From: a virus
Lineage: Duplodnaviria; Heunggongvirae; Uroviricota; Caudoviricetes
Strand: one strand, 5' to 3'
DNA: 64,000 nucleotides
IMG/VR virus record: IMGVR_UViG_2563366895_000001
Location: 27,011-91,010 of that record
In this document: positions 27,454-53,338 of the stretch, piece after piece
Numbering within the stretch: the stretch's first letter is position 1
Layout of the letters: every line of letters begins with the position of its first letter
Position numbers and translations under genes: made by a program
Notes under the pieces: model-generated
The model's input: the letters and a program-made list of their open reading frames with translations, nothing else
What the model was told of the DNA's origin: nothing
Databases searched by the model: none

Positions 27454-27671
27454 AAAACCCCCTGAACGTCGGCAGAGAAGGGGAGGTTCCAGTAACTAAG
27501 TGAATTGCGCGAGTTAGTTGAAAAACGGGCAGTAAAAATGCAGGGGCCATCAGGCAATTGAGAGCGTGCTTCGTCTTCTGTTGCTGCGATGACGAAGTGA
27601 TAGTGGTGTTTTTTGCAGGAATAGAAACGCCAGATGAATTCTTGGCGTGCGCAAGGATTGGCATTAACCAT
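27450..27671 (-). CDS. icd: Icd-like small protein (73 aa) overlapping the ant start
   Basis: Length and position as P1 icd. Confidence 0.45.
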   Translation of the reverse strand: MVNANPCARQEFIWRFYSCKKHHYHFVIAATEDEARSQLPDGPCIFTARFSTNSRNSLSYWNLPFSADVQGVL

Positions 27672-27699
27672 AGTTACGGCCTCACAATCAGGTTTAACA

Positions 27700-27900
27700 A
27701 CCTGCTACCCGCTGCTAAACAGGTGGCAGGACGTGACGGGGTTAGCAGACTGGCGATTGTGAAACCAGCAGGCCGAAGCCTCCCCATCCCGCCCCACCAT
27801 AATTTGGGCGTAACGCGGTTTTACGGACACAAAAATACCGCAATATCGGATATCTGCGGCTGTCCGCACAATCATTCAGGCTGCTAAACCCGGTCGCAGA
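27700..27900 (-). ncRNA. c4: Region expected to encode the c4-type antisense RNA (not resolved at nucleotide level)
   Basis: By synteny only: between the operator at 27986..28002 and icd. Confidence 0.25.
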
Positions 27901-27985
27901 ATTTGCTACGACGGCGAAACTATAAGCCTGAACGATTAAAAGGTCAATATGATGCGAAAAGATAGCATTCGCGACTTAAAAATAC

Positions 27986-28002
27986 AAATTTATTAGAGCA
28001 GA
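27986..28002 (-). promoter_or_regulatory. C1-repressor operator-like site upstream of the c4-icd-ant block (P1 Op51 position)
   Basis: Plus strand AAATTTATTAGAGCAGA, 15/17 to the reverse-complemented consensus. Confidence 0.5.
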
Positions 28003-28283
28003 TTAGTGTCGTGCAATAGATATATTATTTGTGATGAAAAATAATGCAGAGGGATATTGTAACTTTAAGATGGATATCAATAGTCGATACATAAATTAAG
28101 TTAGCAATAAACTATTAACTTAAGAAATAATGCAGATGGTGAACTTGTCTCTGACTTTTCAGCTATACACAATAAGTTAGGGATAGCTTATAAAAAGTTG
28201 ATTAATTGATATAAGTCAATGGGAGTATTCTTGTTTACTTTCCGTTCTCGTGGTAACTTCTCGCCGGTTTTTGTTTTTCTGGG

Positions 28284-28805
28284 ATGATTCTTATGTCTAA
28301 AAAGTATACTTTATGCGCTCTTGTTGTATCTGCAATTCTTCTTTCTGGGTGTCAATCTAGCGGTGCTGATTATGCTGCCGATGTTTATGATACCGCTCAA
28401 TTGAATTCGAAGCAGGAAACAAAGACAGTCAATATTATCTCTGTGCTTCCAGCTAAAGTGAAAGTTGATAATAAAGCTAATAAAGAAGCGGCACAGACAT
28501 TTGGTGCGGTACTGGGAGCTGTTGCTGGGGGCGTTGCCGGTTATAATGTTAAAGGCACATCGACACTGGGTGCTGTAGCTGGCGGTACTGGTGGTGCGGC
28601 TCTTGGTGCAGCGGCTGGTTCTTTGGTTAGTGATAAAACAATTGTTGAAGGTGTTTCACTGACTTATAAAGAAGGAACTAAGGTGTTCACTTCAACTCAA
28701 GTTGGTAAAGCATGCCAGTTTACAACGGGGCTTGCTGTGCTTATTTCAACTAAAGATAATGAAACTCGAATTCAGCCAAATGCTACTTGTCCAGAAAAGA
28801 AATAA
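28284..28805 (+). CDS. Outer-membrane lipoprotein with glycine-zipper region (visibly AT-rich)
   Basis: Signal peptide with lipobox LLSGC; Gly-zipper GAVLGAVAGGVAGYNVKGTSTLGAVAGGTGGAALGAAAGS. Confidence 0.5.
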   Translation: MILMSKKYTLCALVVSAILLSGCQSSGADYAADVYDTAQLNSKQETKTVNIISVLPAKVKVDNKANKEAAQTFGAVLGAVAGGVAGYNVKGTSTLGAVAGGTGGAALGAAAGSLVSDKTIVEGVSLTYKEGTKVFTSTQVGKACQFTTGLAVLISTKDNETRIQPNATCPEKK

Positions 28806-28808
28806 TTT

Positions 28809-29348
28809 ATGAATAAAATTATTTTATTTCTAATCTTTTCTACGTTTAGTGTAGGCACTGCCTTGGCTAACTCGTTGCAAAGTCAAATTGCTGCTATTGC
28901 TCAAGCGGAAAATGAAGGGCGAGCTAAAGAGCAGCAAGCTGAGGATGCCAGAAAAGAACTTATTCGCCAACAAGCACAAGCTGAACGTATTAGAAGAGAA
29001 AAAGCAGCATCTGCCGCTGCTGCACGCGAAAAACAGCGTGTTGCTGCAGAAAATGAACGTAGAGCGAAACGAGAAGCCGAGCTAGCAAATGACAAGAAGC
29101 GAGATCAAGCTTATGAGGATGAGCTTCGCAAGCTGCAACTCGAAAGCATGAAACTCGAACTGCAAGCAAAAGCGGCTCGTGTCCAGCGAGAAAACGATTT
29201 TATAGAGCAGGAGTTGAAGGAGAGAGCAGCTAAGACAGATGTAATTCAGTCTGAGGCTGATGCAAATAGAAATATTTCTACAGGAAGTAAAGATTTACTG
29301 CAAAGCGAAGGAAAAGCTAGAGAGAAGAAAGCTAGCAGTTGGTGGTAG
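28809..29348 (+). CDS. Secreted coiled-coil protein
   Basis: N-terminal signal peptide (FSTFSVGTALA), then highly charged Ala/Glu/Arg/Lys-rich helix. Confidence 0.4.
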   Translation: MNKIILFLIFSTFSVGTALANSLQSQIAAIAQAENEGRAKEQQAEDARKELIRQQAQAERIRREKAASAAAAREKQRVAAENERRAKREAELANDKKRDQAYEDELRKLQLESMKLELQAKAARVQRENDFIEQELKERAAKTDVIQSEADANRNISTGSKDLLQSEGKAREKKASSWW

Positions 29349-47597: not shown

Positions 47598-50585
47598 ATG
47601 AGCTTAAGCGATCAGGTGGTAATGGCCACCAGCATAGAAACGCTGATCGAGCTGCTAAAAAACCTGCCCGATTTCGGGCGGGTTTCGTATGTGGTGACAG
47701 CGAAGGGAGACGAGGTAAAAACAGCGTTTGATATCGTCGATGCCTCAGCTCTTTTGGTATCCAATACTCTGGACGGGAAAATTAATCCGGACTATCCCCA
47801 GGAACTTCAGCCGCGCGACCGGACCCGCGCATCCAACCTTCTTCAGGTTAACCAGATATCCAAGGATTTGCGGCCTGCTCAGCTTACCGATTCCGGTTTA
47901 TCCAGCCATGGAGCGCCGATAATTGGTGAGGACAATGCCGTTGAGTCAGGTAATGGACGGACCATGGGGATCATCAAAGCCTATCAGGACGGCAATGCGG
48001 ATCGGTATCGTGAGTACCTGATTGATCATGCGACCGAATTCGGCATACGACCTGAAAAGGTTGAATCAATGGCGGCTCCGGTACTGGTGCGCCGCCGGTT
48101 AACTAAGGTTGACCGCGTTCAGTTTGCCAAGGACTCAAATATTTCTGATCTTCAGGAAATGGCAGCCAGTGAAAAGGCTTTTGTTGATGCCGACAGCATA
48201 ACTCCGGCGATGATGGCGCTGTTTAACCCATCAGAAAGCGGAGATCTGCTTAGCCGCAGTAATGACGCGTTTATCCGCGGATTCATGACGCAAGTTGGTG
48301 CCACACAGGCTGCTGGCCTTGTAACGGAAGATGGGCGACCAACACGGCAACTTGTAGACCGTATACAAAACGCGATCTTTGCCAAGGCATATAAGGATGC
48401 GCGCCTGGTAAGGATGGTTGCAGAAGAACCTGATCCGGATATGCGTAATGTTCTGACGGCGCTTAATGCGGCAGCCAATGATTTTGTCCAGATGCAGGCT
48501 TTATCAGGAGAAGCGCACAAGCAGGCTGTGACAACTATCGTTGATGGCATTGAAACAGCGGATAGCCTCGATAAAAAGGCGCTGGCGGCATTGAAAGATG
48601 CGGTAGACCTGGTAAGGCAATCGAAGGAGTCAGGCCAACATATTACCGATGTTATTGCTCAGGGGGATATGTTCAGCGAAACAGCCCCGGAAGTGAAAGC
48701 TCTCGCGTTGTTCATCGTCGCGAATAACCGTAGCGCGAAGCGTATGGCCACCGCCTTTAAGTTGATGGCGCAACGTATCAATGATGAGTTACAGCACCAG
48801 GGCCAGGCGCTCGGGGATATGTTTGGCGGCGGCGATGTGTCGTTACAGGATATCCTTCGCCAGGTGTCTCAGGAACTGGAAAACGAAGGCATGCAAGGGA
48901 TATCCGGCGGTCTTTTCGAGTCCGTTTCCGGCGGTAGTTACAACGGTGTTGCTCCGTATACCAGTTTGCTATTACATCGGGCATCCGGCATCAAAGACAT
49001 TATTCATCTGATCAGGCTGCTTTCCCGCACAGATCCCCAGGATGAACAGCTTGTACAAGTGCTTGCGCATTTTGTTCGAATGCCTGTTGCCGACGTGAAA
49101 AAATGGTGCCGATTATTCGGTATCAGCAATTCGTTACTTCGCGGCTTGTTAAATCACGCATCCTCCCTTGGGCGCGATGGCTTTGATGAGATAGCGCAGG
49201 CGATAAAAAACGGAGATATGCCACCAGCTATTGACTGGTTTTCCATTCGCCCAACCAGGGTGAAAGCATTCCTTAGCGCGGCGCATACGGCATCACCATT
49301 GGCAGAAATGGTTCAGAGGTTGTCGCTCATATTCACAGATCATACCGCGTTGGGAGATCTGACTCTTGACGGGATGAAAGAAGCCTCCAGTCAGTGGGCC
49401 GATCAACAAAATGAGGTTAACTCTGACTTCTTGCCAGCATTCAGGAAGGCCGTTAGTAAAGCGGATGATGCCCGTGGAATTCTGAAGGCATTTAAGGCAT
49501 TGCAAAGTCGGGTTAATAAACATGTCGGTGATATCGATGGGGTAACGGCGGAAGGCAGGGATATCCTTAAAGAGCACGGCATAACGCCAGAGTTTATTGA
49601 TGAGATCAGGACTGATATGCAGCGTGAGGTCGTATCGTCCCTGCAAATCGTAGCCAGAGCGTTGGCGGATGCTAATCCGAAGAGTGCGGCCATTGTTAAC
49701 CGGGTTATTGGTGATATTGAAGCATCGGAGGGCATGGGGGCGCTGAAACTCTTCCTTTCGCGAGCGTTTAATCCTAACGGCAATATTCTCCCTGGCATTA
49801 TTGGTGAGGCTAAAAAGTATGTCAGTGAAGAAGAACTTGAGCAGCTTGACCAACTACTTAAGCGATTCTCATATAACCCGCAGACACGCTGGCAAATGAA
49901 TCAGCGAAGTATGGATTCGGTCCACGAGAAAGTGTTATCTGTCATGAACAGTGCGATCGTCAACTCATCCGTATCTGAAGAAAAAGCTCTTGAGTGGGCC
50001 GACTCTTTTATCACGGAAGAAGTGGAAGAAGCCCGCGCTGGACAGAATGGTGGGATAAACTTGCGCAAGGAACTTGCTGATATTTATCGCCTGACCGGCG
50101 GGAAAATATCGACCTTATCAAAGGTGGTTCACCACCAGGGAAGGGCATATGCAAATCTAAATGGTGTTGTTGCTGTCAATTTGAACGGTGAAAATGCGAG
50201 CGCACTGTGGCACGAGCTGGGTCATCATCTTGAGTACAGTAACCCTGGTTTGTTAGAGAAAGCCCGGTCATTCCTGAAGGCCAATGTTGAAGGGGATAAG
50301 CCATCTTTCGTCAATATCGGTGGGCGTGGCAAGCCCGAATGGTGCTTCAGATCTCGATTGAGTAATATTTATATGGCGAAGGTATACCCGCCAGCCTCAG
50401 TAAGTAACACCGGGAAAATTCGGCAGAAATCACCGACTATTTCCAAAACGTCAGCAACGGAAGTATTCTCTATGGCTCTTCAGTTGTATCATGACAAAGA
50501 GGCCGCTGCCGCATCACTGATGAATGGTGACGGATTGCTGGAACTGTTATTAGGTGTGGCAAAGGAGCTAAATAATGCAGATTAA
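47598..50585 (+). CDS. ddrB: DdrB-like large protein (995 aa)
   Basis: Position and size as in the P1 darA operon. Confidence 0.45.
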   Translation: MSLSDQVVMATSIETLIELLKNLPDFGRVSYVVTAKGDEVKTAFDIVDASALLVSNTLDGKINPDYPQELQPRDRTRASNLLQVNQISKDLRPAQLTDSGLSSHGAPIIGEDNAVESGNGRTMGIIKAYQDGNADRYREYLIDHATEFGIRPEKVESMAAPVLVRRRLTKVDRVQFAKDSNISDLQEMAASEKAFVDADSITPAMMALFNPSESGDLLSRSNDAFIRGFMTQVGATQAAGLVTEDGRPTRQLVDRIQNAIFAKAYKDARLVRMVAEEPDPDMRNVLTALNAAANDFVQMQALSGEAHKQAVTTIVDGIETADSLDKKALAALKDAVDLVRQSKESGQHITDVIAQGDMFSETAPEVKALALFIVANNRSAKRMATAFKLMAQRINDELQHQGQALGDMFGGGDVSLQDILRQVSQELENEGMQGISGGLFESVSGGSYNGVAPYTSLLLHRASGIKDIIHLIRLLSRTDPQDEQLVQVLAHFVRMPVADVKKWCRLFGISNSLLRGLLNHASSLGRDGFDEIAQAIKNGDMPPAIDWFSIRPTRVKAFLSAAHTASPLAEMVQRLSLIFTDHTALGDLTLDGMKEASSQWADQQNEVNSDFLPAFRKAVSKADDARGILKAFKALQSRVNKHVGDIDGVTAEGRDILKEHGITPEFIDEIRTDMQREVVSSLQIVARALADANPKSAAIVNRVIGDIEASEGMGALKLFLSRAFNPNGNILPGIIGEAKKYVSEEELEQLDQLLKRFSYNPQTRWQMNQRSMDSVHEKVLSVMNSAIVNSSVSEEKALEWADSFITEEVEEARAGQNGGINLRKELADIYRLTGGKISTLSKVVHHQGRAYANLNGVVAVNLNGENASALWHELGHHLEYSNPGLLEKARSFLKANVEGDKPSFVNIGGRGKPEWCFRSRLSNIYMAKVYPPASVSNTGKIRQKSPTISKTSATEVFSMALQLYHDKEAAAASLMNGDGLLELLLGVAKELNNAD

Positions 50586-50880
50586 AATCGCAGCGCCATT
50601 AGGCGGAGATGCCATTATCGAATTTGATGATAATGAAGAAGTTTCCGGGCGTTTAAGCATTATCTCCGGTGACATTACCGAGGACATGATCGCTGAAGCC
50701 ATAGCAGGGGCAAATCCCAATAGCTATATGGGATTCGTTAACACCCTTGATGCTCCCGCAAGTGATGTTCTCCGAACGCTGCATCTTTACGCTGGCTGGT
50801 TTGTTGATTGGCCAGCAGTAGATGGTGGCGATGATGACGACGATGATTTTGGTGATCATGTAGACCAGATCGTATATTAA
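50575..50880 (+). CDS. Hypothetical acidic protein ending in a poly-Asp stretch
   Basis: 101-aa ORF overlapping the ddrB stop; GGDDDDDDFGD near C-terminus. Confidence 0.35.
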   Translation: MQIKIAAPLGGDAIIEFDDNEEVSGRLSIISGDITEDMIAEAIAGANPNSYMGFVNTLDAPASDVLRTLHLYAGWFVDWPAVDGGDDDDDDFGDHVDQIVY

Positions 50881-50992
50881 CTCCCTGATTGTGCACAAAT
50901 AATCTGTTCTGATATGTTAATTGTGTACTTAAAGTAAACGCGTAGTGGCTTGCTTTAGGTTATGGAAGCAAGCCATTTCCTATTAAAGTAGA

Positions 50993-51598
50993 TCAAAAAA
51001 CTTTAATTTTGGCGTTTCGCTCACCACATATTGAGCACTTTAGCCGATTTTTTAAGTCTTCCAGAGTCAATCCTGAAGCTACATATTGTTTAATGTCTCT
51101 TTGAGAGAGTATCACTGGTTCACGGAACCTATAACCGCCGCAGAGATGTATTATCATTATCTCAGAATCATTTTCTAACCAGTCATTAAGAGTGTTGTGT
51201 GGTTTAGAAAGTCGCTCAATATCCAAACGCCATTGTTGGATTTCATTACTGTCCCAGTCGAGATTTAGTTTAGCACGTTGGGCAACGAACCGATGTTTTC
51301 CTCTGTTAATACTAGGTTCGTAGTCTTTTCGTTGATCGGTAGTAAGGTCCTCTTCGTATAGAAATGAATCATCGTTTTTATGAGTGGGTTCAAAAATTAC
51401 TTCAATAAAACTTGGCTCATACGCGTTAAAGCTTTTTTTTCTTATGAATATCCCTTGTGTACCACTCCCGTTTAAATCAGCACAAAAATTAACATCTATT
51501 CCTCGACGAAGTGCGAAAAAATAGCTATGTTCCCTCATGGCCACAGCTAATTTGGCTATATCTATAAGGTTGTGTATTTTATCAGAATATGTATTCAT
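50993..51598 (-). CDS. Hypothetical protein in a visibly AT-rich island
   Basis: Start taken at ATG 51598 (MNTYSDKIHNL...), the listed ORF starting at a TTG; C-terminal CSICGE; no recognised domain. Confidence 0.45.
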   Translation of the reverse strand: MNTYSDKIHNLIDIAKLAVAMREHSYFFALRRGIDVNFCADLNGSGTQGIFIRKKSFNAYEPSFIEVIFEPTHKNDDSFLYEEDLTTDQRKDYEPSINRGKHRFVAQRAKLNLDWDSNEIQQWRLDIERLSKPHNTLNDWLENDSEIMIIHLCGGYRFREPVILSQRDIKQYVASGLTLEDLKNRLKCSICGERNAKIKVF

Positions 51599-51777
51599 GA
51601 GGCTTCCAAGCAAATATCATGACAAGCATAAAGTGTTAAAGTAATGTTACGCATCTTAACAAAGTGACTCTTGATTAATTTTAATTCGCCCTATCTTGCT
51701 TGTCTAACCATCATTGCATATACAGAGGGCAAAGAATTACACTTCATGTAATTTATTTCCCTTTAATTTCGTATTAT

Positions 51778-51806
51778 CAGGGTGCTCTCTGGCACCCCTT
51801 TTTATT
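51778..51806 (+). terminator. Hairpin plus T-run in plus-strand orientation at the edge of the AT-rich island
   Basis: GGGTGCTCTCTGGCACCC followed by CTTTTTATT. Confidence 0.4.
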
Positions 51807-51816
51807 CTAGTAAAAA

Positions 51817-52779
51817 TTAATCACTTTCCACCTCTTCCGTGGTGTTTTCTTGCAGCTCTGCCAATGCAGTACGACACAGGTTCCTAGCATTGGCTATAGC
51901 CACACTTTTGACTTCATCCGTCATCGTGCAGGTAATGTACTGATCGAGTTCTTCAGCGCGGATGATGCTTTTGCCAATCAGAAACTGTATTTGCCAGAGC
52001 AGATCGGCATCCATAATCAGAATTTCTGCCGGGCCTTCAGGACCAGCCGGGAAGGAAACATAAGACTGTTTGCCCAGGCCGATAACTCGACAACTTGCTT
52101 CAAGAATTGCGCGATTGAGGTCTGACTTTGTAACTGAAACAGGTTGATTTTCACCTGCGATTACGCCGTTGACATGGATGTGGAATGGCATGTAGCTTGA
52201 AATTCGCTCTACTTTCCATACGCCAGCAAGCGATCCTTCATGCAGCACAATGGGGGTAACCGCGAGTTTCATCTCACCATATAACTGCTGGCAGATAGCT
52301 GGATTGCTGAATACATCCAAAGGTTCACACTCAAACAGCGGCGCAATCTGTATGAGGTCCATCATGGTCATACCAGGGGTACGAGCAGTAATGAATCTGC
52401 GCATGCCAGTATCCATTGTGCGCCAGATAGCTACACCATGCTTTTTGCTCACTTCTTCAGTAAAGCCAAGGTGGCACATGATGGTTTTTTCGATAGCCAG
52501 ATCAGAGATAGAAACCTTTTCGCCAGGTACACCATCATTATTGATGGTCACTTCGACACTCTGGCCATTACGCAGGCGGTATTGAATTGTTTTAGTATTT
52601 TGTGCTGTCATAGTCTTTTCTCTGCTTAAAAACTGATGTATTGCGCCTTCAGGTGGGTCAGGAATGTTTTCCCACCAGCGAAAGCAATATCTCGGGGTGT
52701 TCTTTTCGTGAAAAGCGCGTGCCATTGCCAACTTTGGCGTTTTTTTGCGAGTTCGTGCTTTTGTCGGCGTCTTGACCAC
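51817..52779 (-). CDS. Hypothetical protein (start uncertain; basic N-terminal extension may not be translated)
   Basis: 320-aa ORF between the AT-rich island and ssb; possible real start at the internal MTAQNTK. Confidence 0.4.
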   Translation of the reverse strand: MVKTPTKARTRKKTPKLAMARAFHEKNTPRYCFRWWENIPDPPEGAIHQFLSREKTMTAQNTKTIQYRLRNGQSVEVTINNDGVPGEKVSISDLAIEKTIMCHLGFTEEVSKKHGVAIWRTMDTGMRRFITARTPGMTMMDLIQIAPLFECEPLDVFSNPAICQQLYGEMKLAVTPIVLHEGSLAGVWKVERISSYMPFHIHVNGVIAGENQPVSVTKSDLNRAILEASCRVIGLGKQSYVSFPAGPEGPAEILIMDADLLWQIQFLIGKSIIRAEELDQYITCTMTDEVKSVAIANARNLCRTALAELQENTTEEVESD

Positions 52780-52813
52780 CGCTTTTCTTTCAGTCGTTTT
52801 TTACTCATAAACT

Positions 52814-53321: not shown

Positions 53322-53338
53322 AAATTAATTAGAGCAAT
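53322..53338 (-). promoter_or_regulatory. C1-repressor operator-like site in the ssb / lyz divergent region
   Basis: Plus strand AAATTAATTAGAGCAAT, 16/17 to the reverse-complemented consensus, about 20 bp upstream of the ssb start. Confidence 0.5.

What the first reader, a model, noticed from the sequence alone, without database searches (positions are those of the whole stretch)
50881..51816. AT-rich cargo island with a single ORF of unknown function
Between the end of the darA-type operon and the next conserved block lies a segment that is visibly AT-rich compared with its surroundings. It holds one about 200-codon minus-strand ORF with no motif I recognise (C-terminal CSICGE, tryptophan-rich central region), with its own upstream AT-rich leader and an adjacent hairpin terminator. 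Composition and position between conserved phage operons are typical of acquired defence or anti-defence cargo.
Basis: inference. Interest (0 to 1): 0.6.

Follow-up and report, generated by a model that had tools for sequence, protein, structure and literature searches.

The report
P1 isaB: swappable orphan cargo gene
The AT-rich segment is a real, swappable cargo cassette of P1-like phage-plasmids carrying the long-annotated but never characterised gene isaB, whose protein has no recognisable relative of known function and is a candidate, not a proven, phage/plasmid conflict factor.

Summary
Window 50881-51816 has 36.3% GC against 48.5% for the window, placing it in the lowest 0.1% of equal-sized windows. 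It contains one 201-codon minus-strand ORF (50993-51598). That ORF is bacteriophage P1 gene isaB (99% identical, "unknown protein function"). The segment lies in the already published variable, low-GC region isaA-IS1-isaB of P1-like phage-plasmids. The window shows the IS1-free state. In relatives, the same interval is replaced, to within 2 nt of the finding's borders, by other genes. The wider hxr-ssb slot elsewhere holds a dGTPase defence gene, a Tad2-like anti-defence-domain gene or a porin. Only about 20% of E. coli P1-like elements that carry a trace of isaB keep it intact.

IsaB belongs to a rare family (105 representatives among 1.84 billion proteins). It occurs on ICEs, plasmids and genomic islands of Alpha- and Gammaproteobacteria and, among viruses, only in P1-likes. 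It has no Pfam, PADLOC or NCBIfam match, no conserved partner gene, and no PDB or viral fold match despite a confident model (pLDDT 86). The family carries a C-terminal four-Cys site. The gene is dispensable for P1 lytic growth and under purifying selection.

Function is unproven. My best guess is a stand-alone inter-element conflict factor: defence/exclusion somewhat more likely than anti-defence.

The parts
50881..51816 (.). isaB cassette: the low-GC, swappable unit between the hxr stop and the isaA stop
   Evidence: GC 36.3% vs 48.5%. Phage 813R1 replaces window 50879-51815 with an unrelated 356-aa gene. 673R5 and Ro157c2 also diverge from 50880/50847 onward.
50993..51598 (-). isaB coding sequence (201 aa; alternative TTG start at 51613)
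   Evidence: 99% identical to P1 IsaB YP_006489. PHROG 30162, E 4e-145. dN/dS 0.16 against the E. fergusonii allele.
51678..51706 (-). sigma-70-like promoter of isaB (PisaB)
   Evidence: TAGACA-17-TAAAAT, 10 of 12. Annotated as predicted PisaB in NC_005856. No C1 operator nearby.
50944..50976 (.). 13-bp hairpin between the convergent hxr and isaB genes; darA-operon terminator that may also end isaB transcripts
   Evidence: Annotated terminator in AJ000741. -19.6 kcal/mol on +, -14.1 on -, z about -2.7 to -2.9.
51780..51797 (+). Intrinsic-terminator-like hairpin followed by CTTTTTATT, plus-strand orientation, between isaA and isaB
   Evidence: z -3.2.
51723..51731 (.). Empty IS1 target site: this 9-bp sequence is duplicated on both sides of IS1 in P1
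   Evidence: The two P1 alignment blocks overlap at window 51723-51731 and are separated by the 768-bp IS1 in P1.
50993..51101 (-). 3' remnant of isaB (codons 166-201) that survives in P7-type elements after a deletion
   Evidence: P7, JL22 and phi456 match only up to 51101. About 95 plasmids and 89 E. coli genomes keep only this piece. P7 equals the L034 arrangement minus about 605 bp.
51817..52779 (-). isaA, the neighbouring accessory gene (independent module; its true start is probably ATG 52611)
   Evidence: P1 annotation. PHROG 2326 covers residues 60-320 only. Kept without isaB in 813R1 and Ro157c2, and lost with it in 673R5.
50575..50880 (+). hxr, last gene of the darA anti-restriction operon and left border of the slot
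53322..53338 (-). C1 operator Op(ssb). It controls ssb and possibly read-through into isaA/isaB in the IS1-free arrangement.
   Evidence: One mismatch to the C1 operator consensus. Annotated as Ossb/Op21 in P1. No minus-strand terminator was detected between ssb and isaB.

Best explanation
The segment is a horizontally acquired, self-contained accessory cassette (P1 gene isaB with its own sigma-70-type promoter) in the hxr-ssb cargo hotspot of P1-like phage-plasmids. The window shows it in the state before IS1 insertion.

The product is a 23.6-kDa, two-domain protein:
- an N-terminal alpha/beta domain with an invariant Asp41-x-x-Gly44 loop and Tyr81;
- a C-terminal Cys-rich, probably zinc-binding module.

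It belongs to a rare family that travels as a bare single gene on ICEs, plasmids and genomic islands.

Inferred, not shown: it acts alone in the carrier cell as an inter-element conflict factor. The most likely role is to protect the lysogen or ICE host by binding and blocking a conserved component of incoming phages or plasmids (defence or exclusion), rather than by a recognisable enzymatic effector.

Shown: the identity of the gene, its foreign composition, cassette swapping, dispensability for lytic growth, purifying selection, restriction to mobile elements, and the absence of any known domain or fold.

The confidence of 0.35 refers to the defence/exclusion role. The descriptive part (isaB cargo cassette in a known hotspot) I hold at above 0.9.
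For: Identity with P1 isaB and position.

Composition: 36.3% GC, lowest 0.1% of windows. Family members are AT-richer than their flanks in 13 of 15 other loci.

Cassette replacement at gene borders. The hotspot also holds a dGTPase (PADLOC, 8.6e-87), a Tad2-like domain protein (PF11195, 1.6e-22) and the porin NmpC.

Expression signals: own promoter-like site and no C1 operator nearby. This fits expression in the lysogen, like a 'moron'.

Non-essential in a CRISPRi screen of P1 (PMC10695390). Not mentioned in the P1 virion proteome paper.

dN/dS 0.16. The family keeps 50-60% identity across Alpha- and Gammaproteobacteria.

Neighbours of homologues: a PtuA-like AAA_15/21 ATPase; an HmaA-like PLD/SNF2 helicase with DUF1156/DUF499; integrases; RES and ParE toxins; methylases; and ICE backbones with T4CP, relaxase, RPA and ParA.

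Among viruses it is confined to P1-likes: 50,697 phage records and 2.9 million viral contigs. It is therefore not a general phage counter-defence gene.
Against: No phenotype is known.

No match to any of 5027 PADLOC models and no recognisable effector, nuclease or membrane domain.

Only D41, G44 and Y81 are conserved polar or glycine positions of the N-domain across the superfamily. That argues against an enzyme and fits an inhibitor equally well.

The gene lies next to the darA anti-restriction operon and, in the IS1-free arrangement, could be read through from the C1-controlled early ssb promoter. This would suit anti-defence.

It is lost or truncated in about 80% of P1-like elements that show a trace of it.

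The P1 clade has Phe in place of the second of the four conserved Cys.
Confidence: 0.35

Rival explanations
1. IsaB is an anti-defence (counter-defence or establishment) protein. It would be made early when P1 or an ICE enters a new cell, and would bind and neutralise a host immune protein or signalling molecule, complementing the adjacent Dar anti-restriction operon.
For: It is adjacent to the darA operon. It is on the same strand as the C1-controlled early gene ssb, with no minus-strand terminator detected in between, so early read-through is possible in the IS1-free arrangement. A Tad2-like anti-defence-domain gene occupies the neighbouring sub-slot in Ro157c2. It is a small protein with a new fold and few conserved catalytic-type residues. 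The ICE copies lie in a region with a Toprim primase, YAcAr and DUF736 genes.
Against: It is absent from every phage other than P1-likes. It is not acidic (pI 6.6). The sequence is unusually well conserved for an inhibitor of fast-evolving immune proteins. It occurs in chromosomal islands next to defence genes. A published set of P1 single-gene knockouts showed no change in anti-restriction, but whether isaB was in that set was not checked.
Confidence: 0.22
2. IsaB is a zinc-ribbon DNA- or RNA-binding regulator, or a plasmid-biology factor (for example fertility inhibition or maintenance), that serves the episomal lifestyle shared by P1 and conjugative elements.
Against: All structural matches are below significance. 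Nucleotide similarity between loci stops at the ends of the coding sequence, so no conserved operator or target travels with the gene. There is no conserved neighbour.
Confidence: 0.15
3. IsaB is the toxin or effector of a toxin-antitoxin-like or abortive-infection module. The P1 copy would be a solo, attenuated or decaying remnant.
For: One distant member lies two genes downstream of an HTH_3 + Peptidase_M78 (Xre/COG2856-type) gene in a tight same-strand cluster. Several loci have a small ORF just upstream. The gene is often truncated or frameshifted. The P1 clade lacks one of the four Cys.
Against: The upstream genes are not homologous between loci. Most copies, including P1's, have no candidate partner. 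Intact P1-clade alleles are under purifying selection.
Confidence: 0.1
4. The ORF is a non-functional relic with no current role.
For: It is lost in most P1-like elements, and its loss has no detectable cost for lytic growth.
Against: dN/dS is 0.16. There are 31 invariant residues over 33 sequences from two proteobacterial classes. The structure prediction is confident.
Confidence: 0.05

Closest known systems
Bacteriophage P1 IsaB (YP_006489; PHROG 30162) and the isaA-IS1-isaB variable region (RD-2 / 'region 2') of P1-like phage-plasmids
   Same: 199 of 201 residues are identical, with the same neighbours (hxr, isaA, ssb), the same predicted promoter and the same low GC.
   Different: The window has no IS1. 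It carries a single copy of the 9-bp target (51723-51731), so isaA and isaB are contiguous. No function has been assigned to IsaB.
Prophage 'morons' and defence hotspots of temperate phages and satellites (for example P2 old/tin/fun and the P4 hotspots; Rousset et al. 2022, cited in PMC10879196; named from my own knowledge)
   Same: A small, independently transcribed, compositionally atypical cassette at a fixed position between conserved genes, exchanged for unrelated cargo in relatives. Some of that cargo is defence (dGTPase).
   Different: No protective phenotype has been shown for IsaB. The slot also carries anti-defence-like (Tad2-like) and porin cargo. No PADLOC model matches.
Small phage/plasmid inhibitor proteins of host immunity (for example Tad2, PF11195, found in the neighbouring sub-slot of phage Ro157c2)
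   Same: A single small gene on mobile elements, beside an anti-restriction operon, with few conserved catalytic-type residues.
   Different: No sequence or fold similarity to Tad2 or to any solved structure. Absent from phages other than P1-likes.
Zinc-ribbon / treble-clef type Cys4 modules
   Same: The C-x5-8-C ... C-x2-C pattern is >=90% conserved in the superfamily, in a beta-beta-alpha-alpha-beta C-terminal domain.
   Different: No significant match to any zinc-finger Pfam family or PDB chain; the best is the RBM5 RanBP2-type finger at E 0.7. The P1 clade has only three of the four Cys. Metal binding is untested.

Membership tests
P1 IsaB / PHROG 30162 | Full-length sequence identity and synteny (hxr - isaB - isaA - ssb) | tested here: met
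   99% amino-acid identity to YP_006489. PHROG 30162 E 4.4e-145 over 1-201. Collinear with NC_005856 apart from IS1.
Accessory 'moron'-type cargo cassette in a phage hotspot | Atypical base composition relative to the backbone | tested here: met
   36.3% vs 48.5% GC, lowest 0.11% of windows; GC3 0.30.
Accessory 'moron'-type cargo cassette in a phage hotspot | Presence/absence or replacement polymorphism at a fixed position among related genomes | tested here: met
   At least seven arrangements of the hxr-ssb slot. Full-length isaB in 25 of 119 plasmids and 20 of 109 E. coli genomes that have any trace.
Accessory 'moron'-type cargo cassette in a phage hotspot | Own promoter and terminator; expression independent of the phage lytic programme | tested here: inconclusive
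   A promoter-like site (10/12) and flanking hairpins were found, with no C1 operator. These are predictions only; no transcript data were available.
Known anti-phage defence systems (PADLOC-DB v2.0.0) | Match to a defence-protein HMM | tested here: not met
   No family at E <= 1.
Known anti-phage defence systems | Protection of cells against phage when expressed | not testable with these tools
   Needs plating assays.
Known anti-defence families (Tad2, Ard and others, as represented in Pfam) | Sequence or fold similarity to a characterised inhibitor | tested here: not met
Toxin-antitoxin / RosmerTA-like (Xre + M78 peptidase partner) | Conserved adjacent partner gene | tested here: not met
   An HTH_3 + Peptidase_M78 neighbour is seen in one distant lineage only. 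Upstream genes are not homologous between loci. P1, the ICE and the Serratia copies have no partner.
Cys4 zinc-ribbon-type domain | Four conserved metal-ligand cysteines in two knuckles | tested here: inconclusive
   The family has four Cys at >=90%. The window's protein has C152, C188 and C191 but Phe at the second position, with His150 nearby. Zinc binding cannot be tested here.
P1 virion or morphogenetic protein | Needed for plaque formation, or present in virions | tested here: not met
   CRISPRi knock-down gave EOP 1.4, classed non-essential (PMC10695390). 'Isa' does not occur in the text of the virion proteome paper (PMC9024508).

The most novel reading that the evidence does not exclude
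IsaB is the founding member of a new single-gene immunity or counter-immunity family with a previously unseen fold. It would be carried by ICEs, plasmids and the model phage P1, and would act by binding a conserved target through an Asp/Tyr pocket and a Cys-rich zinc module, with no known effector domain.
Probability: 0.35. Interest if true: 0.7.

Novelty: already known. Interest (0 to 1): 0.4.

Why it matters
P1 is one of the most used phages in bacterial genetics, yet isaB has stayed "unknown protein function" since the genome was annotated.

This analysis shows three things:
- isaB is an exact swappable cassette in a slot that elsewhere carries defence (dGTPase) and anti-defence-like (Tad2-like) cargo.
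- It belongs to a rare family restricted to mobile elements.
- It has a confidently predicted structure with no known fold relative.

That makes it a cheap and well-defined candidate for phenotype screens. If it proves to be an immunity or counter-immunity factor, it would add a new protein family. It would also show gene flow from conjugative elements into a phage-plasmid. If it shows no phenotype, the result is simply a tidier annotation of a known variable region.

Tried and rejected
- Pfam, NCBIfam and PADLOC scans of IsaB, Hxr and IsaA gave nothing significant. PHROGs returned only families of unknown function.
- Profile searches of PDB sequences with the family and superfamily alignments gave only chance-level hits.
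- A Pfam scan of ten distant members, including the two with N-terminal extensions, found no domains.
- A second large search with the superfamily profile found no annotated or fused relatives.
- Conserved partner gene: all-against-all comparison of 130 neighbour ORFs recovered only ICE backbone genes. Bulk PADLOC and Pfam scans of 108 of them found no family in more than 3 loci.
- Xre-M78 (Rosmer-like) lead: rejected as general, because the upstream genes in other lineages are unrelated.
- Conserved flanking non-coding element or RNA: nucleotide similarity between loci stops at the ends of the coding sequence. Rfam gave only a sub-threshold AniS hit.
- The original P1 genome paper (PMC523184) is not held.
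It was repeated with the closer alignment.

Full report
**1. Observation**

The segment 50881-51816 is 36.3% GC, while the 64-kb window averages 48.5% (sd 3.3% for windows of the same size). Only 0.11% of such windows are as low. The sliding profile dips to 0.355-0.385 between 50800 and 51800, with flanks at 0.46-0.53.

It holds one substantial ORF on the minus strand, 50993-51613. The ATG at 51598 gives 201 aa. This agrees with the P1 annotation and with the N-termini of homologues. Third-position GC is 0.30, against 0.39-0.57 for ddrB, hxr, isaA, ssb and lyz.

The C-terminal CSICGE is there. The 'tryptophan-rich' remark is not borne out: there are three Trp, though all are conserved.

Hairpins flank the gene:
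- 50944-50976 is annotated as the darA-operon terminator in AJ000741.
- 51780-51797 is followed by a T-run on the plus strand.

A sigma-70-like promoter (10 of 12 matches) at 51706..51678 on the minus strand coincides with the predicted PisaB of the P1 record.

**2. Identity and locus**

The window is a P1-like phage-plasmid. The ORF is P1 isaB ('IS1 insertion-associated gene B', unknown function), differing from the P1 protein at two residues.

Gene order here is ddrB - hxr (end of the darA anti-restriction operon, +) | isaB (-) | isaA (-) | ssb (-) | lyz (+).

P1 itself differs only by IS1. The two P1 alignment blocks overlap at window 51723-51731, the 9-bp target duplication. The window therefore shows the empty site, the arrangement before IS1 insertion.

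**3. It is a swappable cassette in a known hotspot**

Breakpoints against relatives fall at gene borders:
- Phage 813R1 is collinear to 50878 and from 51816, and has an unrelated 356-aa gene in between. The finding's interval is thus one exchange unit, to within 2 nt.
- 673R5 replaces 50880-52809 (isaB plus isaA) with a 122-aa gene and a dGTPase (PADLOC PDLC02374, 8.6e-87; split into two ORFs).
- Ro157c2 has a 95-aa gene instead of isaB, and a DUF2829/Tad2-like gene (PF11195, 1.6e-22) inserted at 52601/52608 between ssb and isaA.
- E. fergusonii plasmids carry nmpC/ompC in place of isaA, next to isaB, with the boundary at 51742. One allele is intact and one is frameshifted.
- P7, JL22 and phi456 are that arrangement minus about 605 bp, which leaves only codons 166-201 of isaB.

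Counts:
- Of 119 plasmids with any trace, 25 have the full gene.
- Of 5426 complete E. coli genomes, 109 have a trace, 20 have it full length and 89 have only the last 109 nt.

The variability and low GC of 'isaA-IS1-isaB' are already published: RD-2 in PMC6906374 and region 2 in PMC9603915.

**4. The protein**

No Pfam, NCBIfam or PADLOC family matches. The only hit is PHROG 30162, of unknown function.

*Distribution.*
- A word-indexed search of 5.8 billion proteins found 56 relatives, most at 48-60% identity, all 'hypothetical'. They come from Serratia, Aeromonas, Citrobacter, Enterobacter, Mixta and many Alphaproteobacteria, including Novosphingobium, Sphingomonas, Ferrovibrio, Dankookia, Roseicella and Paracoccus.
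- An exhaustive HMM search of 1.84 billion cluster representatives found only 105 at E <= 1e-3.
- Only 12 of 185,579 species-representative genomes carry it.
- Among 50,697 phage records and 2.9 million viral contigs it occurs only in P1-likes.

*Conserved residues.*
- The close family shows 31 invariant positions. These include the motifs DLNGSGxQG, YEADLxxDxxKDYEPxxNxGKxxF and QWRxDIERL, and a C-terminal CxxC.
- Across the wider superfamily only D41 is invariant. G44, Y81, F104, W140 and four Cys (C-x5-8-C ... C-x2-C) are >=90% conserved.
- The P1 clade has Phe at the second Cys position.

*Structure.* AlphaFold2 with the family alignment gives a confident model: pLDDT 85.7, pTM 0.81. It has two N-terminal helices, a five-stranded sheet, a helical linker and a beta-beta-alpha-alpha-beta C-terminal module. 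Nothing similar was found:
- Foldseek against the full PDB and BFVD gives nothing at E < 0.001.
- AFDB was unavailable.
- PDB sequence-profile searches are at chance level.
- Ten distant members, including two with about 175-aa N-terminal extensions, have no Pfam domain.
- A second large search with the superfamily profile found no named or fused relative.

**5. Is it functional?**

Between the window allele and the intact E. fergusonii allele there are 12.5 synonymous and 8.5 non-synonymous differences, giving dN/dS 0.16. CRISPRi knock-down of isaB in P1 leaves plaque formation unchanged (EOP 1.4, 'NE'; PMC10695390). The P1 virion proteome paper does not mention it. It is therefore a selected but dispensable accessory gene, not a structural one.

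**6. Context elsewhere**

The gene always moves as a bare ORF. Nucleotide similarity between loci ends at the coding sequence. No neighbour family recurs beyond ICE backbone genes.

Contexts seen:
- an alphaproteobacterial ICE, between a DUF5677 gene and HTH_17-RPA-ParA-...-relaxase-T4CP, with identical protein on dozens of contigs;
- the edge of a Serratia prophage remnant;
- next to an AAA_15/AAA_21 (PtuA-like) ATPase pair in Aeromonas;
- next to a PLD/SNF2 (HmaA-like) - DUF1156 - DUF3780 - DUF499 cluster with integrase and ParE in Novosphingobium;
- an element with umuDC, Dam methylase and ParB.

The gene is AT-richer than its flanks in 13 of 15 loci.

One distant member lies behind an HTH_3 + Peptidase_M78 gene. 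The corresponding genes in other lineages are unrelated, so this is not a general partnership.

**7. Expression logic (inferred)**

The only C1 operator near the region is Op(ssb) at 53322-53338; none is near isaB. No minus-strand terminator was detected between ssb and isaB. Without IS1, early read-through from ssb is therefore conceivable, in addition to PisaB. No transcript data were available.

**8. Interpretation**

*Firmly supported.* This is P1 isaB, a foreign-composition cargo cassette in a documented hotspot, here without IS1. The protein belongs to a rare, MGE-restricted, unannotated family with no detectable fold relative.

*Inferred.* It has a role in conflict between mobile elements. 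I give the following weights:
- Defence/exclusion in the carrier cell, about 0.35. In favour: own promoter, no C1 control, moron-like anatomy, defence-island neighbours, and absence from all other phages.
- Anti-defence, about 0.22. In favour: adjacency to the Dar operon, possible early read-through, a small binder-like protein, and Tad2-like cargo next door.
- Regulator or plasmid factor, about 0.15.
- Toxin-like effector, about 0.10.
- Non-functional relic, about 0.05.

Few catalytic-type residues are conserved and the family has a Cys-rich module. Together these suggest a binder or inhibitor rather than an enzyme. That is inference only.

**9. Novelty and score**

The feature itself (gene, low GC, variability) is already known.

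What is added here:
- exact cassette borders;
- the IS1-free state;
- the derivation of the P7-type remnant;
- the distribution and conservation pattern of the family;
- the lack of any known fold.

Interest is 0.4: a well-defined candidate, but no surprise yet. The most novel reading not excluded, a new single-gene immunity or counter-immunity family with a new fold, has a probability of about 0.35 and would merit about 0.7.

Noticed in passing
window 51703-51808 (+): Between isaA and isaB the plus strand folds into a long imperfect stem-loop (about 51724-51764) plus a terminator hairpin with a U-tail (51780-51797). Free energy is -24.8 kcal/mol, z -3.9. It lies downstream of the plus-strand promoter that the P1 record calls 'Pins'. 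It looks like a roughly 100-nt small RNA, or an insulator against antisense transcription. IS1 in P1 is inserted at its 5' edge (51723-31) and the nmpC block joins at 51742. Rfam gives only a sub-threshold AniS hit (21.6 bits against 50).
   Followed up: partly
window 51817-52779 (-), isaA: The annotated 320-aa isaA is probably over-extended at its 5' end. PHROG 2326 covers residues 60-320 only. Ro157c2 has a Tad2-like gene inserted at 52601/52608, upstream of Met57 (ATG 52611). So a further cargo sub-slot exists between ssb and isaA.
   Followed up: partly
window 51723-51731: The window is an IS1-free P1-like element. It carries a single copy of the 9-bp sequence that flanks IS1 on both sides in P1, i.e. 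the pre-insertion state of the classical P1 IS1 site.
   Followed up: yes
L015 2666-4019 (phage vB_EcoM-673R5): The dGTPase defence gene in the same slot is split into two ORFs (95 aa and 329 aa) that match consecutive parts of one PADLOC dGTPase profile. It is probably a frameshifted pseudogene or a sequencing error.
   Followed up: no
L033 3001-3603 (E. fergusonii plasmid p18B226LT3): This isaB allele is a pseudogene: the frame is disrupted between codons about 28 and 52. The sister plasmid pTB91P2 (L034) has an intact allele next to the same ompC/nmpC porin gene. P7-type elements are a deletion derivative of that arrangement.
   Followed up: yes
window about 27551-29050: A second strongly AT-rich stretch: 936-bp windows go down to 36.8% GC. 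A C1-operator-like site lies at 27986-28002 (2 mismatches). It may be another variable or immunity region.
   Followed up: no
L036/L037 5529-7690: A distant IsaB-family member (P0093) sits in a tight same-strand cluster [238 aa][HTH_3 + Peptidase_M78, 398 aa][75 aa][IsaB-like], beside an integrase, ParB, a TIR_2 gene and an integron-cassette-type gene. This architecture, seen once, resembles Xre-COG2856 toxin-antitoxin/Rosmer-type modules.
   Followed up: partly
L008-L013 (alphaproteobacterial ICE): An identical 224-aa IsaB homologue (P0015) is present on dozens of contigs from different samples and genera, within one ICE backbone. In one copy (L010) two Tn3-family transposases are inserted immediately upstream, leaving the gene intact. 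This is evidence of recent wide spread of that ICE.
   Followed up: no
P0079 (374 aa) and P0101/P0107 (379/280 aa): A few family members carry an extra N-terminal region of about 175 aa with no Pfam match. By eye, that of P0079 looks like a duplication of the IsaB N-terminal domain.
   Followed up: no
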